Shown piece by piece: positions 30,333 through 54,555 of a DNA stretch of 64,000 nucleotides; position 1 is the first letter of the stretch, and each line of letters starts with the position of its first letter. The notes under the pieces are model-generated. The model ran no database searches. It saw nothing but the letters and a program-made list of their open reading frames with translations, and had not been told where the DNA came from. Where the stretch lies: IMG/VR virus record IMGVR_UViG_3300044673_000278, positions 187,694 to 251,693 of that record; one strand, given 5' to 3'. The stretch comes from a virus. Its lineage: Duplodnaviria; Heunggongvirae; Uroviricota; Caudoviricetes. Position numbers and translations under genes: made by a program.

Positions 30333-31407
30333 TGTATTCAACTTCAAGGTCTGTGAGTTCAGGGTACAGTGGCAAACTGAGAACTCTACGTGCTAGACTG
30401 GAACTCACAGCCAACATGTCGGGACCCGGCCACTGACGGTATACATCAATCTCGTGTATGGGACGCTCGTAATGCACACGAGTTTCAATCTTGCGATCTG
30501 CTAGCTTTTGTTTGACAGTATCACGACGGTCAATGTCAATCACAAACTTGTGATGTGCATGATTATGTGCGTTGCCTTCGTCGATCAAACAGCGTATCTT
30601 TGATCTATTGTCAAAACGTTCGCGCCAGTAATCTGATATTTTTGCACGCCGCGCCTGCCATTGATCAATGTATTGAGTTTTGACTAACATGGTAGCACAA
30701 TCTATTTCGCTCATGCGACTGTTGGTACCTGCATAGCCGTGCGTGGGTTTGCCGTTGTCTCTCCACGCCCTGGCAAATTCTGCAAGATCCAAACTGTCTG
30801 TGACCACAGCACCACCGTTGCCATAACAGCTTAGATTTTTCATGGGATCAAAACTGATAGCAGCAGCATCGCCTATGCGTTGGCAGTCATTGGACAACCA
30901 GTGTTGTGCAGCATCTTCGATCACAATGGTATTGGTAGCAACCCAGTGGTTCCAGGATCGCACATGTGCAGAATGTGTGATTGATTTGCCGTAAAGCCCT
31001 ACCAGCACCACAGCATCGTATTCTACCAACTGCGGAAACTTAGTATCGTCCATGATGCCATATGCATCGGTGTCAATAAAGTGAAGATCCCAGCCAGCAC
31101 GGATAAAAGCATTGGCAGTGGCCACGTAGGTAAAACTGGGCATGAACACTCTGGGGTGTTTGGCCAACTGTGTTGCCCAATACTCTGCAATGATTTCCAA
31201 GGCCTGTGTGCCCGAGTGGCAGGTCACAGCATACTTCACACGGTTCCGTTTGGCAAGCCAGTGCTCAAACTCCACAGTGTTGTTGCCGTTCATGAGAGCA
31301 CCTGAACGCAACACTTCATCGGTTGCGTTCAGTACTTGATCTCTCAGTGTGTTATACTGTTTTCGGAGACCAGTAAACGGAATTGTCAAGCCAGTCATAG
31401 TAGGCAC
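30292..31407 (-). CDS. DegT/DnrJ/EryC1/StrS-family PLP-dependent sugar aminotransferase
   Basis: Family-typical N-terminus. FDPMKNLSCYGNGGAV contains the PLP-binding Lys. 371 aa. Confidence 0.7.
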   Translation of the reverse strand: MPTMTGLTIPFTGLRKQYNTLRDQVLNATDEVLRSGALMNGNNTVEFEHWLAKRNRVKYAVTCHSGTQALEIIAEYWATQLAKHPRVFMPSFTYVATANAFIRAGWDLHFIDTDAYGIMDDTKFPQLVEYDAVVLVGLYGKSITHSAHVRSWNHWVATNTIVIEDAAQHWLSNDCQRIGDAAAISFDPMKNLSCYGNGGAVVTDSLDLAEFARAWRDNGKPTHGYAGTNSRMSEIDCATMLVKTQYIDQWQARRAKISDYWRERFDNRSKIRCLIDEGNAHNHAHHKFVIDIDRRDTVKQKLADRKIETRVHYERPIHEIDVYRQWPGPDMLAVSSSLARRVLSLPLYPELTDLEVEYISDQVLAAVAVST

Positions 31408-32323
31408 GGAAACCTTCTTTCACATCAACTTTGGGATCGTAACCAAGAATGGTACGAGCACGATCAATATTTAAGGCTCCGCGGCTGGGGAAGTCTTGAT
31501 CTCGATCTTGCACTTCAATGGTACCTTTGCCCACCATCTCTACAATCATTTCAGCAGCTTCCAGCAAGCTTACACTGTGAGATTTAGTGATGTTGTAGGT
31601 ATTGTTACGTGCCATAATCCGCGTAGCCGCAGCCACAATACCATCAGCTGCATCATCAACATACGTGAAGTCCAAAGTTTCTCCCGCTCCGTTGACTCGT
31701 AGCACACCACCACGCATTGCAGTGAGCATAAATTTTGCAACAACACGATCCTCCACATCCAAAGGACCGTATACCGCTGACGGGCGGATAATAACGTATT
31801 CCATACCAGTTCTGCGAGCATAGTCTTTGACAAGCCATTCTCCTGACAGTTTCATGATACCGTACTGTCCTTGCGGATTGCACGTATCATCTTCCAGCAC
31901 TTGATCTTCAAAGTCACCGTAGACCATAGAGCTAGAAATGTACACAAAGCGTTCTACTTTGTGTTTTTTGGCACTCTCGAGAAGATTGATCAATCCACGC
32001 ATCATGACTTCTGCGCCCCAACTGGGGTTGGCATTGACTACTTTTTGTCTAGGAAAACTAGCACAGTGAATGATCACTTCGGGCTTTTCTTTTTCTACAA
32101 TGGTGTCAATTTCGTACCCATCAGTAATGCACTGCTGATAATGAGTGTGAGGTTGCAGCTTCTTAAGACGCTCTGCCATAAGGTAATCGATCTCGCCTTG
32201 TGGGATAATACCATAGGTGGTGTGCGTGTCAATCACTGCCACAGTTTCGTCACGGCCTTGTAGTCGAGCCACAACATTGTGACCAATCAATCCGTGTCCG
32301 CCTGTTACTAAAAATTTACTCAT
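31352..32323 (-). CDS. NAD-dependent NDP-sugar epimerase/4,6-dehydratase (extended SDR)
   Basis: VTGGHGLIGHNV Rossmann motif, YISSSMVYG and YGIMK (YxxxK). Confidence 0.7.
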   Translation of the reverse strand: MSKFLVTGGHGLIGHNVVARLQGRDETVAVIDTHTTYGIIPQGEIDYLMAERLKKLQPHTHYQQCITDGYEIDTIVEKEKPEVIIHCASFPRQKVVNANPSWGAEVMMRGLINLLESAKKHKVERFVYISSSMVYGDFEDQVLEDDTCNPQGQYGIMKLSGEWLVKDYARRTGMEYVIIRPSAVYGPLDVEDRVVAKFMLTAMRGGVLRVNGAGETLDFTYVDDAADGIVAAATRIMARNNTYNITKSHSVSLLEAAEMIVEMVGKGTIEVQDRDQDFPSRGALNIDRARTILGYDPKVDVKEGFRAYYDWLDNSVYWSPKTV

Positions 32324-32675: not shown

Positions 32676-33368
32676 TCAGTCCTTTGCAATCATATCGGTT
32701 GCCATGGGAAAGATTTTGGCAATGACTTCTGCACAGGCTCTGGCAATCAACATGTGTTCTTTTTGTGTGCCGTTGCCCGAACGCAGCTCAATAAAGTGAA
32801 TCCAACTACGCAGTGTACCATTCATGTACATGCGGCTCACAGTAAGACCTTCGGGCAGCACAGCACGGGCTTGTTCTTTGGCAATGCCATTTTTAATAGC
32901 CCAGGCATACTCTTGTTTCACTGAGAACAACACACGTTGTTGAGCACGTTCCCATTCGTAGGCCAGTAGACGTTGTTCTTGATTGTCTTGATCAAGCTCT
33001 ACACTGTTTTGTCGATTCTTGAGGTCCTGGAATCGAGCCTCACGTAGCACAAACGCTTGGTCAAGCTCAGCTGTAGGATCAGCATATCGCTGGGAAAACT
33101 CTTGGAAGCTGAAACTTCTGTGACGTAGAATCTGTCGGGCAATGTCACGGGTGGTGGTGATTTCACAACAGGCCGAGACCATTTCCAACGGGCTCCAATG
33201 CTTGTGCCGAACCAGGTATCGAATAAGTTTTTCGCTTGTTTCGGTATTGAATTGGTTGGCTGGATTGGACACACGGGCGCAATAGGCGATGAGTTCTTGG
33301 GCGTCGTCGATTCCCAGCTCTGCAAATGTCTCGGTGGGTTGGCTGTAGGATACAAGTTTAACATCCAT
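32676..33368 (-). CDS. thyX: FAD-dependent thymidylate synthase ThyX
   Basis: ThyX signature RHRSFSFQEFSQRY (RHR-x7-S). 230 aa. Confidence 0.8.
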   Translation of the reverse strand: MDVKLVSYSQPTETFAELGIDDAQELIAYCARVSNPANQFNTETSEKLIRYLVRHKHWSPLEMVSACCEITTTRDIARQILRHRSFSFQEFSQRYADPTAELDQAFVLREARFQDLKNRQNSVELDQDNQEQRLLAYEWERAQQRVLFSVKQEYAWAIKNGIAKEQARAVLPEGLTVSRMYMNGTLRSWIHFIELRSGNGTQKEHMLIARACAEVIAKIFPMATDMIAKD

Positions 33369-35655: not shown

Positions 35656-36450
35656 TTACTTGGGCAGCATCAAGCTGGTCATGTTGCTAGGCACAACGAT
35701 AGTCTGAACCTTGCCGTTCTTAATACCTTCTGAGATGTTAAGAGCAGCCTGAGCATTCATGAATGCAATGGAACTGGCTGAGTTGTTAGCCAGAGCAGCC
35801 ATACGGCGTGCTTCTGCTTCAGCAGTCTTGACTTCAACTTCTTTCTGCTTGAGCTCGTTCTTGGCACGAACCAGTTCGTTGGCGCTGGCCACCACACTGT
35901 CAGCTGGCATGACATTACGAATCATAACTTGGCTGATAGTAATACTACCGTCCAGTTTTTCTTCAGCAAGGTTGCGAGTGATTTCATCCTTGATAAAGTT
36001 TTCCATGTCAGTGCGATTGTCTGCCATGTCCAATGCTTCGTACTTACGTGCAGCCTTGTAGATAGCATTGCGAGCGTTCTGAACGATGTAATTGTACATC
36101 AGGTAAACGTCGCCCTTGTGTTCTGCGTGGAACGATTTGTTCTTGGTGCTATACAGTTCAGCAACCTGGTTCTGGTTGATGTTGTACACAACCACAGCAT
36201 CCAAATCTTTCATGGTACTGTTGTCTTTGGCCACAGGGGTCATATTCTCAAGAGAGACATTGACGTCCTTGACGGGGAAGGTCAACACATCACCAACAAG
36301 AACCTGATTGAACGAGCCGGGTAGCAGTTCTCCGGACTTGACTTGTTTGTCAAAGCCCACACGCACACCAACTTCGCCAGTTTCAATACGGGTACAGCCA
36401 GTGGCCAGCACAGCAGCGGCCAGGATGGAAAGGGTAGCAAAACGTTTCAT
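35656..36450 (-). CDS. SPFH (band-7/prohibitin/HflC-like) domain lipoprotein
   Basis: Start set to MKRFATLSILAAAVLATGC, a signal peptide with lipobox LATGC. The body has SPFH-like beta/alpha segments and a C-terminal coiled coil (ELVRAKNELKQKEVEVKTAEAEARR). Confidence 0.6.
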   Translation of the reverse strand: MKRFATLSILAAAVLATGCTRIETGEVGVRVGFDKQVKSGELLPGSFNQVLVGDVLTFPVKDVNVSLENMTPVAKDNSTMKDLDAVVVYNINQNQVAELYSTKNKSFHAEHKGDVYLMYNYIVQNARNAIYKAARKYEALDMADNRTDMENFIKDEITRNLAEEKLDGSITISQVMIRNVMPADSVVASANELVRAKNELKQKEVEVKTAEAEARRMAALANNSASSIAFMNAQAALNISEGIKNGKVQTIVVPSNMTSLMLPK

Positions 36451-36547
36451 ATCAAAGAACTCCAGTAGAAAAAAGGAAAAAACAAACCGCAAAGCCCAGT
36501 GCAAAATACAAGGGCCTCAGCCAAAAATCGTTAATCATAACAGTCCT

Positions 36548-37295: not shown

Positions 37296-37477
37296 TCCTT
37301 GCCTAGTTGTTTTTCAGCTTCGGTTTGGCGTTCCCAAAGGATACTTTCGTACCCTTTGTAGAACAGCCATGTGTCGCACACAGCCAGCACACTTAGAAAG
37401 ATCCAAAAACCAAGCCACGCCATGTCACTTCTTCCGTTCTTCTTCGTAGTATGCATGAGCACCCCAGGGCGGAACAA
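37283..37477 (-). CDS. Hypothetical small membrane protein
   Basis: 64 aa with an N-terminal transmembrane segment. Confidence 0.35.
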   Translation of the reverse strand: MFRPGVLMHTTKKNGRSDMAWLGFWIFLSVLAVCDTWLFYKGYESILWERQTEAEKQLGKECQK

Positions 37478-38702
37478 TGGTAGTGGTACCGTGCAGGATC
37501 CAAGTCACGTCACAGTATTCTTCATCGCCCCACGAACCAAACGGGTAGCCGTCTGTGAACACAACCAGCCGGCGCGGCTGAATGTCTTCGTCCTTGAGGT
37601 AACGATAGATAGCAGTGAAGTCAGTGCCACCACCGCCAGCAGGTTCATAGTCAATGATACTATCCAGGTTGTCGGAATTGTACTGTGCAGGATTGTAAGT
37701 TTCAGTGTCGAAGCTGAACACATGAATCTTGTATGCAGGGAACGAATCCATGATGCCTTGGATTTCGCCTAGGAAGTCCTTGAGCATTTTCTCGCCGATT
37801 GAGCCCGAAGTGTCAATTGCAATAGCAATGTCGATCATTTCGTCGTTCTTCATGCCGGGCATCACAGCGTCCATGTGCCAGCCACGACGGCTTGCTCGCA
37901 TCCAAGTGAAGTCCGACTTGATGGTGCTTTCAAGGTTCATGCGTAGCAGTTCGCGCCAGTTCATCTGGGGCTCGGTGAGCTCCTTGATCAGTCGCATAAC
38001 GCCTGCAGGAATGTTGCCAGCACCGTCCACAGTTTGAGCCGCAGCCAGCATGGCTTCTTTGATCTCGTCCTTGATCTGTTGACGTTCAGCATCGGAAAGC
38101 TTGGGGCGGCCTTTACCTTCTTTGTCGCCGTCGCCATCACCTTCGCTGTCACCTTCTCCGTCAAGGTGCTCGTCGATCATCTTGTCCAGCAGATCAGAGA
38201 TGTTGATCTTTTGTGCGTTTTCAAACAGTTTGTCGTAGATCTCTTCGGAGCTCATGCCGTCGTACTTGGAATCGTGCAGGCAAGGCACAGTGGTGATCTT
38301 TTCGCCCACACGGTGCTTGATCAAGTCTGCGTTGACAGCAAAGTCGTTGGCAATGTTGAACAGTTGCGGATCACGATCGCCACGGCGGCCAAAGTGATCG
38401 TAAACACAGTGCAGAACCTCGTGACCAAACAGGAATTCGATCTCCTTGGGACGAAGCATCTGAATGAAACGGCTGTTGTAGTAGAAGTGGCGGCCGTCTG
38501 TGGCGGCAGTGCTACACCATTCATCAGCATTGACCAGCTTGAGTCGGGTAGCAAGGTTGCCAAAGAAGCTGGCACGAAGCAGGAGGCCCACGCGGGCAGT
38601 GATCAGTTTTTCGCGAACTTCGCGGTCAATCTTGGGGTCAGTGGGACCCAACAGGTTAGCAAATTTTTGTTTGTCGTCTTTGGTCTGGGTAGTTGCAGTC
38701 AT
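37425..38702 (-). CDS. VWA-domain protein with an N-terminal HExxH metallopeptidase-like domain (DUF2201/CoxE-like), partner of the MoxR ATPase
   Basis: HEVLHCVYDHF is an HExxH motif. DIAIAIDTSGSIG is a VWA MIDAS motif (DxSGS). Start re-set to the ATG at 38702 (AAAGGA SD) because promoter P1 (-10 at 38727-38732) lies inside the ORF-track 5' extension. Confidence 0.65.
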   Translation of the reverse strand: MTATTQTKDDKQKFANLLGPTDPKIDREVREKLITARVGLLLRASFFGNLATRLKLVNADEWCSTAATDGRHFYYNSRFIQMLRPKEIEFLFGHEVLHCVYDHFGRRGDRDPQLFNIANDFAVNADLIKHRVGEKITTVPCLHDSKYDGMSSEEIYDKLFENAQKINISDLLDKMIDEHLDGEGDSEGDGDGDKEGKGRPKLSDAERQQIKDEIKEAMLAAAQTVDGAGNIPAGVMRLIKELTEPQMNWRELLRMNLESTIKSDFTWMRASRRGWHMDAVMPGMKNDEMIDIAIAIDTSGSIGEKMLKDFLGEIQGIMDSFPAYKIHVFSFDTETYNPAQYNSDNLDSIIDYEPAGGGGTDFTAIYRYLKDEDIQPRRLVVFTDGYPFGSWGDEEYCDVTWILHGTTTIVPPWGAHAYYEEERKK

Positions 38703-38726
38703 GTCAGTCCTTTGTGTCAATGTGTT

Positions 38727-38755
38727 ATTATAGCACAATGCGAATTATTGATCAA
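38727..38755 (-). promoter_or_regulatory. Sigma70-type promoter P1: TTGATC-17-TATAAT with upstream TG
   Basis: Minus-strand reading ttgatcaataattcgcattgtgcTATAAT. Confidence 0.6.
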
Positions 38756-39126
38756 ATCCAGCGTCCTGCATTGTCAATTTCATCACGGGTGAATTGTCCG
38801 CCTGAACGGTCGGGATTTTGTTGCCAATGTGCCCAAGTAGAAAACTCTTTACCTTTCACTTCACACTCAACAAGATCATCCAAGATGCGGTTGAGTTCGT
38901 CAATGTTGATTTTCAGGAACTCAATGGTTGCCCTATTAGCAACTATCTCGCTGGTTGAGTTGAACCAGCCTTGTTCGTTTCGCTCGATCTTCTCTGCCAG
39001 CATCTTTTCCTTGCCGGCGATTGTGTTCTTCAGGTTAGTGATTACGGTTTGCAGGTTCATATCAAACTCCTTTGGCGGCAAGATAGCCCAACAATGCCAA
39101 TGCGGCAAAGTTAAACACAATAGCAA
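38752..39126 (-). CDS. Hypothetical protein
   Basis: 124 aa. Confidence 0.45.
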   Translation of the reverse strand: MLLCLTLPHWHCWAILPPKEFDMNLQTVITNLKNTIAGKEKMLAEKIERNEQGWFNSTSEIVANRATIEFLKINIDELNRILDDLVECEVKGKEFSTWAHWQQNPDRSGGQFTRDEIDNAGRWI

Positions 39127-39147
39127 CGAAACACCAAAATAACGCTG

Positions 39148-39393
39148 TCATTCTTCAATTCCAAAATGTTGTTTGACCTTGCCTAAATCAGGAATGCCAT
39201 TGTCGTTAGCACTCTCGTTCATAATGAAGTCGTACATTTCTTCCAACAATACCTCGGCGAACTTTGCGTCCACACTGTCTTGTAGTTCACGATTGTGACG
39301 AATGTTTTCCCAGAAATATTCCTTTTTACACATATTCTGTTTGGCAACAAAATCAAAAGCCTGTTTTTGAAGTTCTCGAATTCGTTCGTTCAT
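39148..39393 (-). CDS. Hypothetical small protein
   Basis: 81 aa. Confidence 0.45.
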   Translation of the reverse strand: MNERIRELQKQAFDFVAKQNMCKKEYFWENIRHNRELQDSVDAKFAEVLLEEMYDFIMNESANDNGIPDLGKVKQHFGIEE

Positions 39394-39602
39394 ACCAACT
39401 CCAGTTCTTCAATATGCAGGGCACGGCGATCAATACCGTATTCACCAATCATAAACTCGACGTCTGCTTCTGCAGCCTCGCGGCTTTGAAACGCTCGGTC
39501 ACAATTCTCCCATTGAGTGCCATCGCCAGTGTCAGACATGTCAATTTGCACAATGTAGATTTTCATCTCAGGCCTTTCGAACGGCAAACAGTTGGAACTC
39601 AA
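39390..39602 (-). CDS. Hypothetical small acidic protein
   Basis: 70 aa, overlapping start and stop. Confidence 0.45.
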   Translation of the reverse strand: MSSNCLPFERPEMKIYIVQIDMSDTGDGTQWENCDRAFQSREAAEADVEFMIGEYGIDRRALHIEELELV

Positions 39603-39858
39603 AAGTCAGCAAGGTCACAGCCCAGCCGCGGATTTCGGGATTGGGGCTCTGGCGGAAGCCAACCATCTTGGTGTTGCGAACCATGTCAAAATTCCAACCG
39701 ATTGCATCCAGAAACAAGGAGCCGGCAACCAGCACAACAAAGAAGGGCCAGAACACACTACCAATGATCACAGCCTGACAATCTTGATGCGGAGTGCGAA
39801 CTGCGGCCAGGGCTTGCAGAACAAAAATGATTGCCACGTAACCGATTGCGTATTCCAT
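39568..39858 (-). CDS. Small membrane protein (3 TM helices)
   Basis: 96 aa, hydrophobic throughout. Confidence 0.45.
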   Translation of the reverse strand: MEYAIGYVAIIFVLQALAAVRTPHQDCQAVIIGSVFWPFFVVLVAGSLFLDAIGWNFDMVRNTKMVGFRQSPNPEIRGWAVTLLTFEFQLFAVRKA

Positions 39859-39888
39859 TCAGTGCTCCTTTTTGCTGTCTATGTGTAT

Positions 39889-39917
39889 ATTATAGCAGTT
39901 CGGGTATTTTTGAGCAA
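39889..39917 (-). promoter_or_regulatory. Sigma70-type promoter P2: TTGCTC-17-TATAAT
   Basis: Minus strand: ttgctcaaaaatacccgaactgcTATAAT. Upstream of the gene that starts at 39858. Confidence 0.6.
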
Positions 39918-39979
39918 CCAAAATTGTAGTACTAAAAAAGTATACATTTTTGGTGATCAGAACGTTTTACAGCGTTTTT

Positions 39980-40288
39980 TCAGATGATTCGTGTGTCCGC
40001 GCCTGCTGGATTGTTTAAGTAGCGCAACAAAAACCAACTCTGTGTACTTTCGTTGTAGAAATCCAGGTGTATTTGTTCTTCTGCATAGTGGCGCACCCTC
40101 TCGCCTGATCGATCAAACGGAATCCACTCAGTGTGTTTGCGTACTGTGAATCCTAGTTCGCGTTTCAGCACAAAACTGAGGTTGATTGTTGGACCATGTT
40201 CAGCCCGAATACGCCGCCAGATTGCATCCCAGTCACTGGCGTTTTTAAATATCACTAGATTCTTCTTTACAATCACCTTTGAGGACAT
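39980..40288 (-). CDS. Hypothetical protein
   Basis: 102 aa. Confidence 0.45.
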   Translation of the reverse strand: MSSKVIVKKNLVIFKNASDWDAIWRRIRAEHGPTINLSFVLKRELGFTVRKHTEWIPFDRSGERVRHYAEEQIHLDFYNESTQSWFLLRYLNNPAGADTRII

Positions 40289-40586
40289 TCCAAAATCTCC
40301 AAGTTTTGTCGTACAGATCTACGTCCTCTCGGTGACGTATGAAAATAGTTATCTTGGTTCCGCCTTCAAAATCCCAGCGATCTCCGCGAGTGCCAAGTGT
40401 AGCCCTGCACCATTTTACACGGGCCAAGGCATCAACATCGTGTGCCTTGAAGTCAAATCTGTGTGTCATTCCGCGCATGGATGCACCATTTGAAACCAGC
40501 TGAGTTCTTGATCTCCTTTGAGATAAATGCGGTAGTTTTTGTATTGCACTGCATAAGCCCAATGCGGATTGATTTGGTCGTCCCAT
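40245..40586 (-). CDS. Hypothetical protein
   Basis: 113 aa. Confidence 0.4.
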   Translation of the reverse strand: MGRPNQSALGLCSAIQKLPHLSQRRSRTQLVSNGASMRGMTHRFDFKAHDVDALARVKWCRATLGTRGDRWDFEGGTKITIFIRHREDVDLYDKTWRFWNVLKGDCKEESSDI

Positions 40587-40801
40587 GGCTCAAATCGTCG
40601 ATTGAGAATCCGTGCCATGTCGTTCATAGTTTCAACATCCTGACTCCAACCCCAGGTTTGATTCATCCAGCGCCTGGCTCGATCAAAGTCCAGCACGCCA
40701 GTGCCGGTCCATTCGCTTCGTGTGAACTCTAAACACCAGCGAAAGTTTTTGCTCCAGGCATAACGATTGTCTAACTTAACTACCTTGTATTGCATAAGCA
40801 A
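40466..40801 (-). CDS. Hypothetical protein
   Basis: 111 aa. The frame overlaps 40245-40586, so one of the two may be spurious. Confidence 0.35.
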   Translation of the reverse strand: MLMQYKVVKLDNRYAWSKNFRWCLEFTRSEWTGTGVLDFDRARRWMNQTWGWSQDVETMNDMARILNRRFEPWDDQINPHWAYAVQYKNYRIYLKGDQELSWFQMVHPCAE

Positions 40802-40844
40802 AAAGGGGCAGTGTTGCCACTGCCCCCGTCCTCACCACCACAGT

Positions 40845-41930
40845 TTAGGCGCTAGCCTGGAGGATGTACTTACCAAAACGCTGGTGGAACTCGTCGAAGT
40901 TCTTGAGCTTGGTAGGCTGGAACGGCAGGTTGTAAGTGGTCAGTGCAATACGAGCACCCATAACAACCAGCTCGGTCTCAAAGTTCTTCATCATGTAGCC
41001 GAAGAAGTTGTCTGCCATCTCGTGGAACTTCTTGTCTTCGATCTTGTTCTCAATCGCAGACTTGAGTTCGTAGCACATGGAAATCACCAGCGAGTACATC
41101 GCCGACACTTCCTTGACGTTGAGGTCCTTGACCTTGCCGTTGAGGATATCAATCGGAGCAGGCATACGACCTGCAATCTTGCGGTGAGCCATGAACTTCA
41201 CAGCAAGGCCTTCGCCCACAGTACCTGCAATTAGGTTCATTGCAGTGTCGTCGTCCAGGCTTTCGTCCTCCAACAGCTGGCTAACAAAGTGCCACGAACG
41301 CGGAGTAGCGAATGCACGGCTGGAGCTCTTGGCATCAAAGTCGTAGAGGTCCTGCTTGGCAAAGCTCAGGTAACCAACCACGTCCTTGTGCTCATTGTGT
41401 TGCACAGCCCACTCTTGCCAGCTAGCAAAGTCCACCTTCATTTCCTGGTGCAGGAAGCGGTTTGCCAGCGGAGTAGGCATGCGGAAAGTAACACCTTTGT
41501 CGCTTTCACGGTTACCTGCGGCAACGATAACCACGTTGTCAGGCAGCACATACTTGCCAATTCGGCGGTTCAGGATCAGCTGGTAGGCAGCCGATTGCAC
41601 TGAGGCAGGGGCCGAGTTCATTTCGTCCAGGAACAGGACCACAACAGGATACTGAGCGGCAGTGTCAGCATCGGGCAGATCGATGGGAGGGGCCCAGTCC
41701 ATCTTGCCATTTTCTTTGTTGAAATACGGAATACCACGAATGTCAGTGGGCTCCATCTGACCTAGTCGCAGGTCATACATGATACCGCCCAGGTCTTGGG
41801 TAATACCTTCAACCAGTTCGGACTTGCCGATACCAGGAGGGCCCCACAGGAAGATAGGACGCTTGACTTTGAATGCAGTCAGAATAGACTTGCGGGCTTG
41901 GACGGAAGTGACGGTGCGGGTATCGCTCAT
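40845..41930 (-). CDS. MoxR/CobS-like AAA+ ATPase
   Basis: Walker A RPIFLWGPPGIGKSE, a Walker B-like VVLFLDEMN, and a length of 361 aa typical of CobS/MoxR. Confidence 0.7.
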   Translation of the reverse strand: MSDTRTVTSVQARKSILTAFKVKRPIFLWGPPGIGKSELVEGITQDLGGIMYDLRLGQMEPTDIRGIPYFNKENGKMDWAPPIDLPDADTAAQYPVVVLFLDEMNSAPASVQSAAYQLILNRRIGKYVLPDNVVIVAAGNRESDKGVTFRMPTPLANRFLHQEMKVDFASWQEWAVQHNEHKDVVGYLSFAKQDLYDFDAKSSSRAFATPRSWHFVSQLLEDESLDDDTAMNLIAGTVGEGLAVKFMAHRKIAGRMPAPIDILNGKVKDLNVKEVSAMYSLVISMCYELKSAIENKIEDKKFHEMADNFFGYMMKNFETELVVMGARIALTTYNLPFQPTKLKNFDEFHQRFGKYILQASA

Positions 41931-41999
41931 TGCATTGCCTTTCGGTGGTGGGAAAAATGTTTAACTAAGCTTCTATTGTATGCGAAGTTGAATTTCTAG

Positions 42000-42177
42000 T
42001 CAACTGTTGATTGTTGCAAAAGGACTACAGTCTTCCGATTGCTTTTGTTCGATGATCTCTGCGGCTTCAACCACAAAGTGTACAGGGATCTCTAGGTCGC
42101 GGGCCACTTGAGCAAAGCTCTTGCCTTGTTCTAGCATGTCCTCGATGTCTAGTACTAGATCACTCATTCTGCTCATG
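42000..42177 (-). CDS. Small helix-turn-helix protein (58 aa), not in the ORF track
   Basis: MSRMSDLVLDIEDMLEQGKSFAQVARDLEIPVHFVVEAAEII... contains an HTH-like KSFAQVARDLEIP. It sits directly downstream of promoter P3. Confidence 0.45.
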
Positions 42178-42281: not shown

Positions 42282-43409
42282 TTACAATTTTTTAACAGGC
42301 CACATTCCTGTGATGAATCCTGTAAAAGTAACATTGCCATCTATGGTATTGAAATACTTTTTGTCAACGACTTTTTGTAGATAGGCAAAATTGTCTCGTT
42401 GCAGACCTCGAAGTTTTTCTTCGTATCCAACTTTGAACAACAAAGTATCCAATCCAAAGTTCATGTCCTTGGGCTTTTCTACTTGAAAAAATCTCAAATC
42501 CAACTTGGGATAAATTATTGCTCTTGACGCAGTTTCGTAAAATTGTCTATGAGCTGGATTGCTGACCGGCCATTGGATGAATTGTTTGAATTGTGGCATG
42601 CTTTCAAAAAATTTAACCAGCAGGTGAGCTTGCTTGGCCAGGATCTTCCAGCTGTCTTTGCTCCAATAAAACAAATCAAATCCCACATTTTGTTTGTAAA
42701 ATGCAGAGCTAAACGTAGGACCGTTGGCAGTTAGTACATCTAAAAAATACAACCGATAGGCATTGTCGTTGATACACACCCTGGGTTTGTCTGTCCCAAA
42801 CACAACACCGACATTTTCACCGTTGTTGATTCGATCACGAATGGACGGAATCAGTTGCAAATCCCATTTGGCATTTGCATAGGGTGTAAAGTTGTGATTG
42901 CGATCGGCAATGAAGTCGTCAGCTAGCTTGATGCCGCTGATGGCCTCAACCCAATCGTACACAGTGATTTTTATGTTTGGGTGGTCGTTGGCTAGTTTCT
43001 GTAGTCTGGGCTTGATGTTAAAATCCCATTCCGAAAGGATATTGTTCCAACTAAAATTTGTGCTGTCAGGAACATAGGTGTTTCGTAGACTGTCTGCCCA
43101 GATTACAACAATCTCGTCGATTCGAATGTTGTTTTCTAAGCAAACGTCAAGAATGGTTTGACTGTCTGAGCCACCGCTGTACATCAGCACAAGGTAGTCG
43201 TACTTTTCTCTCAGTTGTTGAGCACGTTGTTTATACAGTTCGTAGATATCTTCGGCAGGTTCTTGTGTCCAGTCGATGTGATCAAAAAAATCATTGTTGA
43301 ATTTCCACTCAACATGAATGTTTTGTTTGGTTCCCTCCAGCAAGGCCGCAACCTTGCTGGTGAACACAGTATTGCCTACAGTATAATAACCTGTGTCGGT
43401 GTTGATCAC
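42282..43409 (-). CDS. PP-loop (SGGxDS) ATP-pyrophosphatase family protein, paralog 1
   Basis: LVLMYSGGSDSQTILDV PP-loop motif. 375 aa. A paralog lies at 50446-51606. Confidence 0.55.
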   Translation of the reverse strand: MINTDTGYYTVGNTVFTSKVAALLEGTKQNIHVEWKFNNDFFDHIDWTQEPAEDIYELYKQRAQQLREKYDYLVLMYSGGSDSQTILDVCLENNIRIDEIVVIWADSLRNTYVPDSTNFSWNNILSEWDFNIKPRLQKLANDHPNIKITVYDWVEAISGIKLADDFIADRNHNFTPYANAKWDLQLIPSIRDRINNGENVGVVFGTDKPRVCINDNAYRLYFLDVLTANGPTFSSAFYKQNVGFDLFYWSKDSWKILAKQAHLLVKFFESMPQFKQFIQWPVSNPAHRQFYETASRAIIYPKLDLRFFQVEKPKDMNFGLDTLLFKVGYEEKLRGLQRDNFAYLQKVVDKKYFNTIDGNVTFTGFITGMWPVKKL

Positions 43410-44314
43410 TGCCAGTACTTTCTGATAACAGTTCGTTGAGATTGAATGTTGTCTACAAGTTTTTGACCTGTCAACCCATCTGCACTGCTGACTGCATTGT
43501 CAGCAAAGGTTTGAAATTTTTCTTGACGGACAATAAACTCAATGCGTTTTGCTAGCAGTTCTTTAAACGCAGGATCAGCATTTTTAGGCACTGCAATACC
43601 AAACCAAGACTCAATGTTGGCTAGTTCTTTGCTGTTGAGTGCAAAATTTTGATACTGTTTGAGTCTGGAAGTTTTGCCAGTTGCAGTATAGCCAACAACT
43701 TTGAACTTGCCTTCTTCGGCTACACCAACGCCGCCGCCGGAGTCAAATGCCAGATCAAGAGTTCCGTCGATCAAGCTAGGATACATTTGAGGACCGTTTT
43801 TAAACATTACCACATTGGTATCCAAACCATAGGCCTTGGCAAGGTACTGTACTACAGTGCGGTTTGGCCCTTGAAACACACCAACGTTGATTGGTCTCTT
43901 TAGAGATTTAAGATATGAAACATATTCATCCAAGCTCTTGACTGCAGGAGTACGGTTAGGACCGTACCACACTGTGGGGAAATTTACCACTTTGACAACC
44001 ATTTCAAGATCGTCGCCGTGTGTTTTGGCATCAGGAAACAGATACTTGTTGTAAAGAATCATAGTGCCGCCAGCGCAGATAGCCTTGTTGGCAGCAGTGC
44101 TGTCTAGCATGTCTCGAGATGCAATTTCTCCTGATGCTCCTTGTTTTAAGTGCAACACAGAAGATGTTTGGAAATAAGTGTCATATGTGTTCCACAATGT
44201 GCGGCACACAGTTTCTAAGTTTCCTCCGGCAAAAGGCAACCATACATTGTTGATTTCTTTTGCGTGAGCAAAAATTGGCAGTGCCAATGCTAGGGATAAT
44301 AAAAATTTAGTCAT
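43406..44314 (-). CDS. Secreted periplasmic substrate-binding-protein-like protein (TctC/Bug-like?)
   Basis: Signal peptide MTKFLLSLALALPIFAHA. About 300 aa of alpha/beta SBP-like sequence including FDSGGGVGVAEEG. Confidence 0.4.
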   Translation of the reverse strand: MTKFLLSLALALPIFAHAKEINNVWLPFAGGNLETVCRTLWNTYDTYFQTSSVLHLKQGASGEIASRDMLDSTAANKAICAGGTMILYNKYLFPDAKTHGDDLEMVVKVVNFPTVWYGPNRTPAVKSLDEYVSYLKSLKRPINVGVFQGPNRTVVQYLAKAYGLDTNVVMFKNGPQMYPSLIDGTLDLAFDSGGGVGVAEEGKFKVVGYTATGKTSRLKQYQNFALNSKELANIESWFGIAVPKNADPAFKELLAKRIEFIVRQEKFQTFADNAVSSADGLTGQKLVDNIQSQRTVIRKYWQ

Positions 44315-44953: not shown

Positions 44954-45268
44954 TTAAAAGGGAATGTCATCATCCCAGAAGGATTCTACTTTTTTAGGCT
45001 TGGGTGCAACATAATCAGGATCGCCAAAGTTATTGAACACTTCCTGATAGTCGCCGCGCAGCCTGTCCTGATTGTCAGTAAGAATCTCTATCTTTTCAAG
45101 TTCAGTCCATGGGCGGTCCGGATGGTGGATTGTTACATATCCGTTTGTATATGTACCTTGCCACGCACCGTTTACTACCCAGAAGTCAAACTCTGTTGGT
45201 GATTTTTCTTGCTCAACATCAACTAGCAGACTAGGCTGATCTTTTGTACCTAACATTAATCTCATCAC
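44954..45268 (-). CDS. Hypothetical protein
   Basis: 104 aa. Confidence 0.5.
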   Translation of the reverse strand: MMRLMLGTKDQPSLLVDVEQEKSPTEFDFWVVNGAWQGTYTNGYVTIHHPDRPWTELEKIEILTDNQDRLRGDYQEVFNNFGDPDYVAPKPKKVESFWDDDIPF

Positions 45269-46203
45269 GCACCTACAAAGTTACGAACCCATGCCAGTCG
45301 AGCTTGCTCGTCCATGGCTGTATACTCCGCAATGTTAGCACGGATAGCATCCACCAAGGGATAGTATTCTTCGTCTAGATTGTGCTTGATGTCCCGGTTC
45401 AAGTCCACTAGCTTGTCTGTGCGTGGATTGCGGGCAACCCATTTTGAAGTCAAGTAGTAAGGTGATTTGATCTTGGCACTTACACCATCTTGAGTATAGA
45501 ATACATAACCTTCGTGCTTACAACCTTTGGCATCTTCTTTTAATTGTGCCATAGTCAAGAATCCTGCGGCTGGACTATAACAGTTAAAAGTGTTGGCCAA
45601 ATCTAGGATTACCCCTGGGCTGTGACCAACCTTGCTACGCCACGAGTTTTCACGATAGCCTAGTACATACATGCCTGGCTTTTCTGGTATGATGTGCGGA
45701 TCGTTTGGGTGAACACATTCGAACATCACAGTCATGCCACGCAAGTCGTCATTGGCAAAAGCCATTTGCCAATCAGCCCATGGAGCATGAGTTAGCATCA
45801 TTTCCTTGGCCATGGCAACATAGTCGCTGTCTGTGCTACCTGTAGTAGACACTAGAACATCTCCGTTATACCAAGTGCAAGCAACCATAAAGCCGTTGAC
45901 CTTACGGAATGCAATTACTTCAGTCTCGTCTGAGAGCACTGGTGCTTCTTTTTCGATACCGTAGTTATAAATCTTGGTAAAAGGATACGACACCAAGTTG
46001 AAGTCGGCATCTACAATAGACCCGCGACATTCAGCAATGTAGTCGTTCCACAGGTTATCGTAGAATACCTTCTTCTTGTATTTCAGCACATAGATACCTT
46101 CGCCGGCTGGCTTCATATTCACCAGCCCTGAAGTCTCTACATACCGCTTCAATTCTTCTTTAAACACTTTCAACTCCGAAATGCTGTTTGAACAAATTAG
46201 CAT
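45265..46203 (-). CDS. Putative ATP-dependent RNA ligase (nucleotidyltransferase superfamily, Rnl-like)
   Basis: Candidate motif I RKVNGFMV (Kx[D/N]G), motif IV EGYVFY and motif V DGVSAKIK. 312 aa, a size typical of phage RNA ligases. Confidence 0.45.
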   Translation of the reverse strand: MLICSNSISELKVFKEELKRYVETSGLVNMKPAGEGIYVLKYKKKVFYDNLWNDYIAECRGSIVDADFNLVSYPFTKIYNYGIEKEAPVLSDETEVIAFRKVNGFMVACTWYNGDVLVSTTGSTDSDYVAMAKEMMLTHAPWADWQMAFANDDLRGMTVMFECVHPNDPHIIPEKPGMYVLGYRENSWRSKVGHSPGVILDLANTFNCYSPAAGFLTMAQLKEDAKGCKHEGYVFYTQDGVSAKIKSPYYLTSKWVARNPRTDKLVDLNRDIKHNLDEEYYPLVDAIRANIAEYTAMDEQARLAWVRNFVGA

Positions 46204-53643: not shown

Positions 53644-53720
53644 TGGTGCCCCCAGCGGGACTCGAACCCGCAAAATTCTGATTTTGAGTCAGACACGTAT
53701 ACCAATTCCATCACAGGGGC
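53644..53720 (-). tRNA. tRNA with anticodon CAA (Leu-type anticodon) but class-I architecture
   Basis: Acceptor GCCCCTG/TGGGGGC, A73, CCA encoded. Anticodon stem TCTGA/TCAGA with loop CTCAAAA. Variable arm only ATTTT. T-arm GCGGG-TTCGAGT-CCCGC. Confidence 0.5.
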
Positions 53721-53777
53721 ATTGGTTATTCAAGTATATATTATACTTGAAGTCTGGTTTGTTGTAAACCAGGTTCT

Positions 53778-53855
53778 TGGTCGGTGTAGCAAGATTCGAA
53801 CTTGCGACCCCTTGCACCCCATGCAAGTGCGCTACCCAGGCTGCGCTATACACCG
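53778..53855 (-). tRNA. tRNA-Pro (GGG)
   Basis: Anticodon stem CTTGC/GCAAG with loop ATGGGGT. T-loop TTCGAAT. CCA encoded. Confidence 0.6.
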
Positions 53856-53936
53856 TAATTGGCACGCCCTTCGGGAATCGAACCTTCGACTCTGTGGTTT
53901 TGGACACCCAGAGATCAGCCAGAGTGAGCGCATGAT
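53856..53936 (-). pseudogene. tRNA-like remnant (Trp-like anticodon loop UCCAAAA; no acceptor stem)
   Basis: Contains GGTTCGATTCC and GTCCAAAACC, but the acceptor and T stems do not pair. Confidence 0.3.
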
Positions 53937-54012
<76 letters not shown>

Positions 54013-54544: not shown

Positions 54545-54555
54545 ATAGATCTTGG

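What the first reader, a model, noticed from the sequence alone, without database searches (positions are those of the whole stretch)
37425..41930. MoxR/CobS-like AAA+ ATPase plus VWA protein with HExxH metallopeptidase domain, separated by seven small genes
This is a MoxR-VWA chaperone-like pair. The VWA partner carries an N-terminal HEVLH zinc-peptidase motif (DUF2201-like) rather than being a CobT chelatase subunit, so it may be a regulated protease or maturation system rather than a cobalt chelatase.
Basis: partly seen in the sequence, partly recalled or inferred. Interest (0 to 1): 0.6.

Follow-up and report, generated by a model that had tools for sequence, protein, structure and literature searches.

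The report
Phage MoxR ATPase with peptidase-VWA partner
This uncultured jumbo phage carries the widespread, already described phage gene pair of a MoxR-type ATPase and a zinc-peptidase/VWA fusion protein (the coliphage N4 gp24/gp25 pair), whose role is still unproven but which recent screen data link to overcoming a bacterial defence system.

Summary
ORF 40845-41930(-) is a MoxR/midasin-class AAA+ ATPase with intact catalytic motifs. ORF 37425-38702(-) is a 425-aa fusion of a zincin metallopeptidase domain (Pfam DUF2201_N, HEVLH) and a VWA domain with a complete MIDAS (Pfam DUF2201). Seven small genes lie between them.

It is not CobS/CobT. There is no CobT or CobS_N match and no cobalamin-pathway context.

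The pair is orthologous to coliphage N4 gp24/gp25, two of the 14 N4-like core genes. It occurs in about 800 sequenced phages. In 76 of 80 related metagenomic loci the ATPase lies upstream on the same strand (median gap 493 bp; 22 loci have no spacer ORF). The seven-gene spacer here is a lineage-specific expansion, not a functional third part.

Iyer et al. (2021) already described this pair in jumbo phages and proposed virion assembly. A 2025 transposon screen of the rV5-like phage Bas54 argues against that: both orthologs are dispensable in E. coli K-12 but depleted in an isolate carrying defence system DS-28, and the ATPase knockout is DS-28-sensitive.

Most likely this is an ATP-driven, MIDAS-targeted protease module with an accessory, probably counter-defence, role. 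It is a new member of a known kind and of moderate interest.

The parts
40845..41930 (-). MoxR/midasin-class AAA+ ATPase, 361 aa (N4 gp24 ortholog). Walker A GPPGIGKS is at nt 41820-41843, Walker B FLDE at 41622-41633, sensor-1 AAGN at 41511-41522, Arg158 (ANRF) at 41457-41459, and sensor-2 ATPR at 41298-41309.
   Evidence: Pfam AAA_5, AAA_3 and bpMoxR, and PHROG 1297 at E 7e-96. The best solved relative is the midasin AAA modules: E 6.6e-13 for the single sequence and 9e-21 for the profile. The motifs are conserved in the PA5oct-like, N4-like and rV5-like orthologs. Coordinates were verified.
41975..42003 (-). Sigma-70-like promoter match (TTGACT-17-TACAAT) 45 nt upstream of the ATPase start.
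   Evidence: Consensus scan only. The region holds 16 sites against 9.7 +/- 3.5 expected, so this is suggestive and not proven.
40804..40827 (-). Terminator-like hairpin (10-bp stem with 7 GC pairs, then TTTTTG) in the 49-nt gap between the ATPase stop and the first small gene.
   Evidence: This is a consensus match only.
40466..40795 (-). Small gene sg1, 109 aa, with no family match. Its family recurs in the ATPase-VWA spacer of 24 of 76 related loci.
   Evidence: No Pfam or PHROG hit.
40245..40469 (-). Small gene sg2, 74 aa, found in only 1 related locus.
39980..40288 (-). Small gene sg3, 102 aa. Its family occurs in the spacer of 14 of 76 related loci.
39568..39858 (-). Small gene sg4, 96 aa, with hydrophobic segments (probably a membrane protein). 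It has no homolog in the related loci.
   Evidence: The membrane assignment comes from reading the sequence and was not tested.
39390..39566 (-). Small gene sg5, 58 aa, lineage-specific.
39148..39393 (-). Small gene sg6, 81 aa, lineage-specific.
38752..39060 (-). Small gene sg7, 102 aa, lineage-specific.
38727..38755 (-). Sigma-70-like promoter match (TTGATC-17-TG-TATAAT) 25 nt upstream of the peptidase-VWA start, followed by an AAGGA ribosome-binding site.
   Evidence: This is a consensus match only.
37425..38702 (-). Zincin metallopeptidase-VWA fusion protein, 425 aa (N4 gp25 ortholog; Pfam DUF2201_N + DUF2201).
   Evidence: Pfam and PHROG 1314. 19,047 cluster representatives match at E<=1e-3. 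AF2 model with pLDDT 77.
37917..38645 (-). Peptidase domain (aa 20-262). HEVLH is at nt 38409-38423, His103 at 38394-38396, Arg106 at 38385-38387, and the D120-x3-N124 helix at 38331-38345. A disordered Gly/Asp-rich loop (aa 180-199) is at nt 38106-38165.
37443..37841 (-). VWA domain (aa 288-420) with a complete MIDAS. D297-T-S299-G-S301 is at nt 37800-37814, T360 at 37623-37625, and D384 at 37551-37553.

Best explanation
The locus encodes the phage N4 gp24/gp25-type two-gene module. One gene is a MoxR/midasin-class AAA+ ATPase. The other is a cytoplasmic partner protein in which a zincin metallopeptidase domain is fused to a VWA domain with a complete MIDAS.

Shown here: the domain identities, intact catalytic residues in both proteins, strong genomic linkage across many phage lineages, and the absence of any conserved third gene.

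Inferred mechanism, by analogy with midasin/MIDAS, CbbQ/CbbO, NorQ/NorD and RavA/ViaA: the VWA domain docks on the ATPase ring. Its MIDAS metal captures an acidic side chain of a specific target protein. ATP hydrolysis remodels or pulls on that target, and the tethered Zn-peptidase cleaves it. This would amount to an ATP-dependent, substrate-specific protease built from two polypeptides.

Inferred role: an accessory, host-specific function expressed in the middle phase of infection. The most likely version is removal of a host protein such as a component of an anti-phage defence system, rather than an essential step of virion assembly.

The seven small genes between the two partners are lineage-specific cargo in a variable spacer and are not required parts.

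My confidence is about 0.95 for what the genes are, about 0.55 for the protease mechanism, and about 0.4 for the counter-defence role. The single figure given is a blend.
For: Identity:
- Pfam, PHROG and PDB matches.
- AF2 models and fold searches.
- Direct similarity to N4 gp24 (30% identity, E 3e-36) and gp25 (28%, E 2e-28).

Both proteins look catalytically active:
- Walker A and B, sensor 1, Arg158 and sensor 2 are conserved.
- HExxH, H103, R106, D120/N124 and the MIDAS residues D297/S299/S301/T360/D384 are invariant across 55-133 homologs and nine lineages.

Linkage:
- tblastn finds the peptidase-VWA in 797 phage records and the ATPase in 854, with near-identical genus counts.
- 76 of 80 IMG/VR loci have the ATPase upstream on the same strand. 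The 4 exceptions have under 3.7 kb of upstream sequence available.
- The genes are adjacent in N4, K64-1 and fEgEco12.

No third partner:
- 22 of 76 spacers are empty, and the commonest spacer family is in only 24 of 76.
- The ~500-aa spacer genes in the PA5oct-like and Vibrio phages are homing-endonuclease-like.

Role:
- N4 gp24/25 are middle genes and core genes of unknown function (PMC4193335).
- In rV5-like Bas54, the orthologs bas54_0063 and bas54_0055 (29% and 26% identity, E 3e-38 and 3e-46) are both non-essential in K-12, with 60 of 64 and 81 of 86 TA sites hit.
- Both are depleted in isolate CFE311: log2FC -7.23 (q=0) and -2.20 (q=0.009).
- The bas54_0063 knockout is specifically sensitive to defence system DS-28 of that strain (bioRxiv 10.1101/2025.11.20.689424).
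Against: - No biochemical evidence exists for proteolysis, for a physical ATPase-VWA interaction, or for any substrate.
- In Bas54 the peptidase-VWA phenotype is about 30-fold weaker than the ATPase phenotype. The second validated DS-28 counter-gene is bas54_0140, not the peptidase, so the ATPase may act partly or wholly without its presumed partner.
- bas54_0140 has no relative in this window.
- The functional data are from a preprint, from one phage that is only 26-29% identical, and from one host strain.
- The host of the window phage is unknown.
- In rV5-like phages the two genes are divergently oriented and 3.6 kb apart.
- In K64-1 and fEgEco12 the pair lies at the end of a structural-gene block, which is what Iyer et al. 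used to argue for virion assembly.
Confidence: 0.6

Rival explanations
1. Virion assembly or maturation system (Iyer et al. 2021). The MoxR-VWA chaperone pair helps assemble a virion part, and the fused peptidase processes structural proteins. The analogy is the MoxR (p618) and VWA proteins needed for tail development in Acidianus two-tailed virus.
For: This was proposed explicitly for the same pair in group 2.2 jumbo phages (PMC7824862). In K64-1 and fEgEco12 the pair lies directly after tail sheath, tail tube, head completion and virion structural genes. In N4-like roseophages a mid-expressed second structural module lies near the gp24/gp25 homologs (PMC4193335).
Against: Both orthologs tolerate transposon insertions at 94% of TA sites in Bas54 grown on K-12, so infective virions form without them. 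The N4 genes are middle genes next to nucleotide-metabolism and replication genes. In the window the pair sits among ThyX, Band-7 and small unknown genes and not among structural genes. gp24/25 homologs are not among the virion proteins listed for RPP1/RLP1.
Confidence: 0.15
2. Non-proteolytic MoxR-VWA chaperone. The module remodels or metal-loads a phage or host enzyme, for example a nucleotide-metabolism enzyme encoded nearby. The HExxH domain would serve as a metal-binding or regulatory module and not as a protease.
For: All characterised bacterial MoxR-VWA pairs (CbbQ/O, NorQ/D, RavA/ViaA, CoxD/E) are remodelling or metal-insertion chaperones (summarised in PMC7159879). The pair is repeatedly syntenic with dCTP deaminase or thymidylate synthase genes, in N4, K64-1, fEgEco12, Vibrio 2.275.O and the window (ThyX).
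Against: The catalytic Glu of HExxH is retained in 90-100% of homologs, along with a full set of zincin-like residues. That is hard to explain without hydrolytic chemistry. The structural neighbours of the domain are predominantly peptidases. The synteny may only reflect shared middle-phase transcription.
Confidence: 0.12
3. Cobaltochelatase-type CobS/CobT auxiliary metabolic genes, as annotated in some cyanophages and pelagiphages.
For: CobS is also an AAA_5-type ATPase and CobT also has a VWA domain. PHROG 249 ('porphyrin biosynthesis') gives a weak hit (E 4.7e-6) to aa 18-139 of the ATPase.
Against: No CobT, CobT_C or CobS_N Pfam hit at E<=0.01 and no NCBIfam hit. The VWA protein has an N-terminal zincin domain in place of the CobT N-terminal region. 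The PHROG 249 hit covers only the P-loop core and is 90 orders of magnitude weaker than PHROG 1297. There is no CobN or other cobalamin gene in 64 kb.
Confidence: 0.02
4. The 425-aa protein is an HNH endonuclease, as it is labelled in PHROG 1314 and in many GenBank and RefSeq phage records, including N4 gp25.
For: The annotation is widespread. 21 of 60 sampled phage records carry it, against 8 that say metallopeptidase. RefSeq N4, K64-1 and fEgEco12 carry it too.
Against: There is no HNH-family Pfam hit. The whole length is accounted for by DUF2201_N and DUF2201. The predicted fold is zincin plus VWA. The label is most likely an error propagated from the PHROG name.
Confidence: 0.01

Closest known systems
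Coliphage N4 gp24 (AAA ATPase) and gp25 (vWFA / pfam13203), and their homologs across Schitoviridae
   Same: The domain architecture is the same in both proteins, as are the gene order and strand. Sequence similarity is direct (30% and 28% identity, E 3e-36 and 2e-28). The same catalytic motifs are present. They are core genes of N4-like phages, of the middle expression class, with unknown function.
   Different: In N4 the genes are adjacent (168-bp gap). Here 2.1 kb with seven small genes separates them. The window belongs to an uncultured jumbo-phage clade and not to a 70-kb podovirus.
MoxR AAA+ with metallopeptidase-vWA pair of 'group 2.2' jumbo phages (Iyer, Anantharaman, Krishnan, Burroughs, Aravind 2021, Viruses 13:63)
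   Same: The nearest cultured relatives of the window genes are jumbo phages: PA5oct-like at 46-51% identity, and Vibrio 2.275.O, K64-1 and fEgEco12 at 26-37%.
   Different: I did not test whether the window phage falls in their group 2.2. Their proposed role, virion assembly and processing, is not supported by the later Bas54 essentiality data.
Bas54 (phage MaxBurger, Vequintavirinae) bas54_0063 MoxR ATPase and bas54_0055 putative metallopeptidase
   Same: They are orthologs (29% and 26% identity) with the same motifs. This is the only member with genetic data. Both genes are dispensable in K-12 and conditionally important in isolate CFE311, and the ATPase knockout is sensitive to defence system DS-28.
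   Different: The genes are divergently oriented and 3.6 kb apart. The peptidase phenotype is much weaker than the ATPase phenotype. The second validated DS-28 counter-gene, bas54_0140, has no homolog in the window.
Midasin/Rea1 (eukaryotic ribosome-assembly AAA+ with its own MIDAS domain)
   Different: Midasin is one 4,700-4,900-residue polypeptide with six AAA modules and no peptidase. The phage system has two small proteins and a zincin domain.
Bacterial MoxR-VWA chaperone pairs (CbbQ/CbbO, NorQ/NorD, RavA/ViaA, CoxD/CoxE)
   Different: None of them carries a peptidase domain. The phage ATPase scores just below the MoxR-proper AAA_3 gathering threshold (26.7 against 27), and these proteins did not appear among the listed sequence hits in PDB.
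Aerobic cobaltochelatase CobS/CobT
   Same: An AAA_5-type ATPase plus a VWA protein.
   Different: No CobT or CobS_N domains, no CobN, and an HExxH zincin domain in their place. The window pair is not a member.
Small zincin peptidases: aspzincins (peptidyl-Lys metalloendopeptidase, deuterolysin) and minigluzincins (selecase MJ1213, proabylysin)
   Different: The scores are low. The family motif here is HExxH-x4-H-x2-R followed by (A/C)-x-D-x3-N. It matches neither the aspzincin GTxDxxYG motif nor the minigluzincin HExxH-x6-H motif; those two motifs are recalled from my own knowledge. It is a separate zincin family.
CLCA proteins of animals (self-cleaving zincin metalloprotease followed by a VWA domain); the architecture is recalled from my own knowledge and was not tested
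   Different: They are secreted eukaryotic proteins without an AAA+ partner. There is no evidence of common ancestry of the fusion.

Membership tests
DUF2201_N + DUF2201 proteins (N4 gp25-like; PHROG 1314) | PF13203 and PF09967 both score above Pfam gathering thresholds, in that order | tested here: met
   135.4 bits against 23.2, and 56.6 against 26.4. PHROG 1314 is matched at positions 7-392 of 394 with E 4e-104.
DUF2201_N + DUF2201 proteins (N4 gp25-like; PHROG 1314) | Conserved HExxH with further conserved polar residues in the N-terminal domain | tested here: met
   H94, H98, H103, A118, D120 and N124 are invariant or at least 96% conserved, and E95 is 90-100% conserved. They are present in nine phage lineages.
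DUF2201_N + DUF2201 proteins (N4 gp25-like; PHROG 1314) | VWA fold with a complete MIDAS (DxSxS, T, D) | tested here: met
DUF2201_N + DUF2201 proteins (N4 gp25-like; PHROG 1314) | Zinc-dependent peptidase activity | not testable with these tools
   No biochemical report was found in the searchable literature.
MoxR-class (AAA_5 / midasin-like) AAA+ ATPases; N4 gp24-like, PHROG 1297 | Walker A, Walker B (DE), sensor 1, arginine finger and sensor 2 all present | tested here: met
   GPPGIGKS, FLDE, AAGN, R158 and ATPR are conserved in the PA5oct-like, N4-like, rV5-like and other jumbo-phage orthologs.
MoxR-class (AAA_5 / midasin-like) AAA+ ATPases; N4 gp24-like, PHROG 1297 | Profile match to the AAA_5 or AAA_3 (MoxR) families above threshold | tested here: inconclusive
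   AAA_5 scores 27.4 against 22 (passes). AAA_3 scores 26.7 against 27 (just fails). bpMoxR scores 23.3 against 27 (fails). The best PDB relative is midasin, at E 9e-21 with the profile. The clade assignment is sound but the subfamily is its own.
MoxR-class (AAA_5 / midasin-like) AAA+ ATPases; N4 gp24-like, PHROG 1297 | Genomic coupling with a VWA-domain partner | tested here: met
   76 of 80 related loci, and every isolate lineage examined.
MoxR-class (AAA_5 / midasin-like) AAA+ ATPases; N4 gp24-like, PHROG 1297 | Hexameric ring that binds the VWA partner | not testable with these tools
   No multimer prediction or experiment was available.
Cobaltochelatase CobS/CobT(/CobN) | The VWA protein aligns to CobT (PF06213 / PF11775) | tested here: not met
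   No such hit at E<=0.01. The N-terminal 285 residues are DUF2201_N.
Cobaltochelatase CobS/CobT(/CobN) | The ATPase is a CobS ortholog (CobS_N domain, full-length match) | tested here: not met
   No CobS_N hit. PHROG 249 matches only aa 18-139 at E 4.7e-6, against PHROG 1297 at E 7e-96.
Cobaltochelatase CobS/CobT(/CobN) | CobN or other cobalamin-pathway genes in the neighbourhood | tested here: not met
   None was found among the roughly 30 larger ORFs of the 64-kb window that I scanned. The rest of the genome is unseen.
HNH endonuclease (the label carried by PHROG 1314 and many records) | HNH / beta-beta-alpha-metal nuclease domain | tested here: not met
   No HNH Pfam family was matched. 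The fold is zincin plus VWA.
MoxR-vWA ternary conflict systems (VMAP or beta-propeller; Kaur et al. 2020) | A conserved third component (VMAP or beta-propeller) and effector domains | tested here: not met
   No conserved third gene: 22 of 76 spacers are empty and the commonest spacer family is in 24 of 76. bpMoxR scores below threshold. There was no PADLOC hit for the VWA protein, and only weak hits (E >= 2.7e-4) for the ATPase.
Aspzincin / minigluzincin peptidase families | Family-specific third-ligand motif and close fold match | tested here: inconclusive

The most novel reading that the evidence does not exclude
The module is a phage counter-defence protease. The MIDAS domain recognises a host immune protein (in Bas54, a component of the two-gene system DS-28), the AAA+ ring extracts or unfolds it, and the zincin domain cuts it. 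The hypervariable spacer between the two genes, which holds seven small orphan genes here and is empty in 22 of 76 relatives, would then be an anti-defence gene island nucleated by the module. Its small proteins would act as adaptors that redirect the protease to other targets, or as independent inhibitors. If true, this would be an ATP-dependent anti-immune protease common to N4-like, rV5-like and several jumbo phages.
Probability: 0.3. Interest if true: 0.7.

Novelty: new member of a known kind. Interest (0 to 1): 0.35.

Why it matters
The pair is among the most widely conserved phage gene pairs still lacking a demonstrated function. It is core in Schitoviridae and present in Vequintavirinae and several jumbo-phage lineages. 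It occurs in about 800 of 50,697 sequenced phages, and the family has more than 19,000 cluster representatives in metagenomes.

Three practical points come out of this window.
- The catalytic residues of both proteins are conserved, so an active ATP-dependent protease-like machine is the sensible working model.
- About a third of sampled public records, including RefSeq N4 gp25, label the peptidase-VWA as 'HNH endonuclease'. That label is wrong and hides the pair from comparative analyses.
- Published transposon data, read alongside the orthology shown here, show that both partners are dispensable in a laboratory host and depleted together in a DS-28-carrying isolate. This redirects the hypothesis from virion assembly to host-specific counter-defence and makes it directly testable in N4 or Bas54.

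The window itself adds no new kind of system.

Tried and rejected
- CobS/CobT chelatase was rejected.
- HNH endonuclease was rejected as a propagated misannotation.
- A conserved third partner in the spacer was rejected. Clustering spacer ORFs from 76 loci found no universal family. The ~500-aa spacer genes of the PA5oct-like and Vibrio phages are homing-endonuclease-like.
- A homolog of the second DS-28 counter-gene bas54_0140 was sought in the window and in all fetched loci. None was found.
- The PADLOC defence-system library gave no hit for the VWA protein and only weak, partial hits for the ATPase (DolB and IetA, E >= 2.7e-4). NCBIfam gave no hit.
- Fold search with the full-length model returned only VWA hits. 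The N-terminal domain had to be modelled alone to recover zincin neighbours.
- The genome-contig scan found relatives only in aquatic MAGs assigned to many phyla, mostly on short contigs and probably mis-binned phage. It gave no host or chromosomal context.
- The search for related loci with the most diverse alignment failed for lack of conserved stretches, so the linkage statistics come from the 57-84% identity clade plus hand-picked isolates.
- Literature searches for DUF2201, COG3864, the Pfam and InterPro accessions, and Schitoviridae with metallopeptidase found no functional study. The CRISPRi-ART paper does not mention the pair.
- I could not read model coordinates, so the zinc-ligand geometry (H103 versus D120) is unresolved.

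Full report
OBSERVATION

ORF 40845-41930 (minus strand, 361 aa) matches Pfam AAA_5 above threshold, matches AAA_3, AAA and bpMoxR weakly, and matches PHROG 1297 'ATPase' end to end at E 7e-96. ORF 37425-38738 (minus strand) matches PF13203 DUF2201_N ('putative metallopeptidase domain', E 3.6e-39) followed by PF09967 DUF2201 ('VWA-like domain', E 3.6e-15).

The listed TTG start is probably wrong. Homologs and public gene calls are 421-426 aa, and the ATG at 38702 is preceded by AAGGA and a promoter-like site. I therefore use the 425-aa protein, nt 37425-38702. HEVLH is residues 94-98, nt 38409-38423.

Seven minus-strand small genes (109, 74, 102, 96, 58, 81, 102 aa) occupy the 2.1 kb between the two genes. 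They are called identically on a public contig that encodes the identical ATPase. None has a Pfam or PHROG match.

THE ATPASE

Walker A (GPPGIGKS), Walker B (FLDE), sensor 1 (AAGN), Arg158 in ANRF, and sensor 2 (ATPR) are present. They are conserved in the orthologs of PA5oct-like, N4-like, rV5-like and other jumbo phages.

The best solved relatives by sequence are the AAA modules of midasin/Rea1: E 6.6e-13 with the single sequence and 9e-21 with a profile. Generic Clp and p97 hits follow far behind. The protein therefore belongs to the AAA_5 (MoxR / midasin / dynein) clade but forms its own subfamily. It scores just under the gathering threshold for AAA_3, the MoxR-proper family (26.7 against 27).

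It is not CobS. No CobS_N domain is found, and the CobS PHROG (249) matches only residues 18-139 at E 4.7e-6.

THE PARTNER PROTEIN

An exhaustive search found 19,047 cluster representatives at E<=1e-3 and 3,067 at E<=1e-30, so this is a very large family.

In alignments of 124, 55 and 133 homologs the following residues are invariant or nearly so:
- In the N-terminal domain: H94, E95 (90-100%), H98, H103, R106, A118, D120 and N124.
- In the C-terminal domain, a complete MIDAS: D297-x-S299-G-S301, T360 and D384.

The same residues are present in N4 gp25, LUZ7, Bas54/FV3, K64-1, fEgEco12, Vibrio 2.275.O and a PA5oct-like phage.

An AlphaFold2 model (pLDDT 77, with domain cores at 85-92) shows two parts. 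The first is a helical N-terminal domain with a three-stranded sheet, the HExxH helix (85-103) and a following helix that carries D120/N124. A poorly predicted linker joins it to a VWA domain.

The domain is therefore a zincin, but not close to any solved family. The i/i+4 pair D120...N124 on the helix after HExxH resembles the gluzincin/aspzincin arrangement, in which the third ligand sits on that helix. Whether D120 or H103 is the third zinc ligand is my inference, and I could not check it.

There is no signal peptide or membrane segment, so the protein is presumably cytoplasmic (from reading the sequence).

IT IS NOT COBT AND NOT AN HNH ENDONUCLEASE

No CobT or CobT_C hit and no NCBIfam hit were found. 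Scanning about 30 of the window's larger ORFs found no CobN or cobalamin-pathway gene.

PHROG 1314 is named 'HNH endonuclease'. Of 60 phage records sampled evenly across the hit list, 21 carry that label for this gene and 8 say metallopeptidase. RefSeq N4 gp25, K64-1 gp060 and fEgEco12 g309 also carry it. No HNH family matches and the fold is zincin plus VWA, so this is a propagated misannotation.

DISTRIBUTION AND LINKAGE

tblastn finds the peptidase-VWA in 797 of 50,697 phage records and the ATPase in 854. The genus counts are almost identical: Escherichia 216/215, Pseudomonas 111/112, Vibrio 104/108, Klebsiella 70/70, Erwinia 35/35.

The carriers are N4-like podoviruses, rV5-like myoviruses and their relatives, and several jumbo lineages: PA5oct-like, Alcyoneusvirus K64-1, the 350-375-kb coliphages, CBB and Vibrio 2.275.O.

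The window has no close cultured relative. At the DNA level there is only a 190-nt, 75% match inside the ATPase gene to PA5oct-like phages. At the protein level the best isolate matches are 46% and 51% identical. Metagenomes, by contrast, hold many relatives at 80-100% identity on contigs up to about 360 kb.

In 80 IMG/VR loci carrying the peptidase-VWA at 57-84% identity, 76 have the ATPase upstream on the same strand. The other four have only 2-3,649 bases of upstream sequence available. The gap ranges from 101 to 5,076 bp with a median of 493 bp.

Spacing in the isolate phages is as follows.

| Phage | Arrangement |
|---|---|
| N4 | adjacent, 168-bp gap |
| K64-1, fEgEco12 | adjacent, gaps of 76-94 bp |
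| LUZ7 | one gene between |
| Vibrio 2.275.O | one gene between |
| PA5oct-like 30-2 | four genes between |
| rV5-like FV3 and Bas54 | divergently oriented, 3.6 kb apart |

THE SPACER

Clustering all spacer ORFs from the 76 loci shows that 22 spacers are empty and that no family is universal. The commonest family, to which sg1 of the window belongs, is in 24 loci, and the sg3 family is in 14. The other five window genes have no homolog in these loci, apart from sg2 in a single locus.

The ~500-aa genes in the spacers of the PA5oct-like and Vibrio phages are related to each other and to K64-1's annotated homing endonuclease, and several copies occur in one metagenomic locus.

The spacer is therefore a variable insertion site. 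The seven genes are a lineage-specific expansion and not a functional part of the module.

A terminator-like hairpin follows the ATPase stop (40827-40804), and promoter-like sites precede each of the two genes. The partners may therefore be transcribed separately here. These are consensus matches only.

WHAT IS ALREADY KNOWN

[quoted passage not shown] They are 2 of the 14 core genes of N4-like phages and belong to the middle transcription class (PMC4193335).

Iyer et al. [quoted passage not shown] They propose a role in virion assembly with peptidolytic processing of structural proteins, by analogy with the tail of Acidianus two-tailed virus.

I found no biochemical study.

A FUNCTIONAL LEAD

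The HIDEN-SEQ preprint (bioRxiv 10.1101/2025.11.20.689424) mapped gene essentiality in Bas54, which is phage MaxBurger, MZ501093.
- bas54_0063 ('MoxR ATPase') is the gene my ATPase query hits (H88; BLASTP 29% identity, E 3e-38).
- bas54_0055 ('putative metallopeptidase') is the peptidase-VWA ortholog (26% identity, E 3e-46; same motifs).

In the paper's supplementary tables both genes are 'Non-essential' on E. coli K-12, with 60 of 64 and 81 of 86 TA sites disrupted. In the comparison of K-12 with clinical isolate CFE311, bas54_0063 drops to zero reads (log2FC -7.23, q=0) and bas54_0055 drops 4.6-fold (log2FC -2.20, q=0.009).

The text reports that knockouts of bas54_0063 and of bas54_0140, a 99-aa orphan, are specifically sensitive to DS-28, a predicted two-gene defence system of CFE311.

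The supplementary sheet titled 'CFE303' contains the same CFE311 table, so I have no data for a second host. bas54_0140 has no relative in the window or in any fetched locus.

MECHANISM

Three things are shown:
- two proteins with intact catalytic machinery,
- tight evolutionary linkage between them,
- no obligatory third gene.

The mechanism is inferred from the established behaviour of MoxR/midasin-MIDAS systems (midasin-Rsa4/Ytm1, CbbQ-CbbO, NorQ-NorD, RavA-ViaA; summarised in PMC7159879). The VWA domain docks on the ATPase ring. Its MIDAS metal binds an acidic residue of a target. ATP hydrolysis remodels the target, and the tethered zincin cleaves it.

Functionally this resembles FtsH-type AAA+ metalloproteases, but it is split over two polypeptides and has a MIDAS for substrate selection.

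For the biological role I favour an accessory, host-specific function, probably counter-defence. Both orthologs are dispensable in a laboratory host yet selected in a DS-28 host. The genes are middle-class and sit among host-takeover and nucleotide-metabolism genes in N4 and in the window.

The main caveats are these:
- The peptidase phenotype is much weaker than the ATPase phenotype.
- The peptidase was not the second validated DS-28 counter-gene.
- The data come from one preprint and from a phage only 26-29% identical.
- In K64-1-like phages the pair abuts the structural module.

The virion-assembly proposal, a purely chaperone or metallochaperone role, CobS/CobT and HNH endonuclease are the rivals. 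The last two are excluded by tests done here.

NOVELTY AND VERDICT

This is a new, divergent member of a known and already described kind, in an uncultured jumbo-phage clade. Its only local peculiarity is the expanded seven-gene spacer. Interest is moderate to low for the window itself. The gene pair as a class remains a worthwhile and now directly testable open question.

Noticed in passing
window 53644-63067 (- strand): ARAGORN finds 33 tRNA genes in about 9.4 kb, covering most amino acids. This large tRNA bank fits a jumbo phage.
   Followed up: no
window 9983-11563, 13953-15650, 21828-23306 (+); 30292-31407, 31352-32323 (-): A group of biosynthetic-looking genes: two radical-SAM-like proteins (one with a SPASM domain; their Radical_SAM scores of 28.1-28.2 are just below the 29.5 threshold), a carbamoyltransferase, a DegT/DnrJ aminotransferase and an NAD-dependent sugar epimerase/dehydratase. 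This could be a DNA, glycan or peptide modification pathway.
   Followed up: no
window 43406-44314 (-): A 302-aa protein with a signal-peptide-like N-terminus matches TctC, the tripartite tricarboxylate transporter solute receptor (33.8 bits against cutoff 27). That is an unusual gene for a phage. It lies upstream of the ATPase, past a 375-aa protein with a weak PAPS-reductase-like PHROG hit.
   Followed up: no
window 35656-36504, 32676-33368, 45265-46203 (-): A Band-7/SPFH protein, ThyX and a T4 Rnl1-like RNA ligase flank the locus. A thymidylate synthase or dCTP deaminase gene lies a few kb downstream of the pair in N4, K64-1, fEgEco12, Vibrio 2.275.O and the window. This synteny is recurrent and its meaning is unknown.
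   Followed up: partly
public records: N4 NC_008720 gp25, K64-1 gp060, fEgEco12 g309, FV3_00012 and many more: The peptidase-VWA protein is widely mislabelled 'HNH endonuclease', in 21 of 60 sampled records. This apparently comes from the name of PHROG 1314.
   Followed up: yes
L001 5440-6936; L111 13408-14919; L113 105-2108; L053 (several copies): Homing-endonuclease-like genes of about 500 aa have inserted between the ATPase and peptidase-VWA genes in the PA5oct-like and Vibrio jumbo phages. The spacer therefore also receives mobile elements.
   Followed up: yes
window 38106-38165 (-), aa 180-199 of the peptidase-VWA protein: A disordered Gly/Asp-rich loop (LDGEGDSEGDGDGDKEGKGR, pLDDT below 50) sits inside the peptidase domain, just after the conserved D177-x-H179. 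In close relatives it is a (GD)n repeat, and in distant ones it is variable or absent. An acidic loop could in principle occupy the protein's own MIDAS as an auto-inhibitor. That is speculation only.
   Followed up: no
window 40804-40827 (-): A strong terminator-like hairpin lies immediately after the ATPase stop, and promoter-like sites lie before both partner genes. In this phage the two genes may be separate transcription units.
   Followed up: partly
bioRxiv 10.1101/2025.11.20.689424, supplementary file 9, sheets Data S6 and S7: The sheet titled 'resampling_K-12_vs_CFE303' holds the same command line and numbers as the CFE311 sheet. The CFE303 comparison is therefore missing from the held file.
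   Followed up: yes
L088-L107 (genome-contig hits): Close relatives of the peptidase-VWA gene occur only in aquatic MAGs assigned to many unrelated phyla (Haliscomenobacter, Omnitrophota, Fischerella, Puniceispirillum and others), mostly on short contigs. They are most likely phage contigs binned by mistake, so they say nothing reliable about the host.
   Followed up: partly
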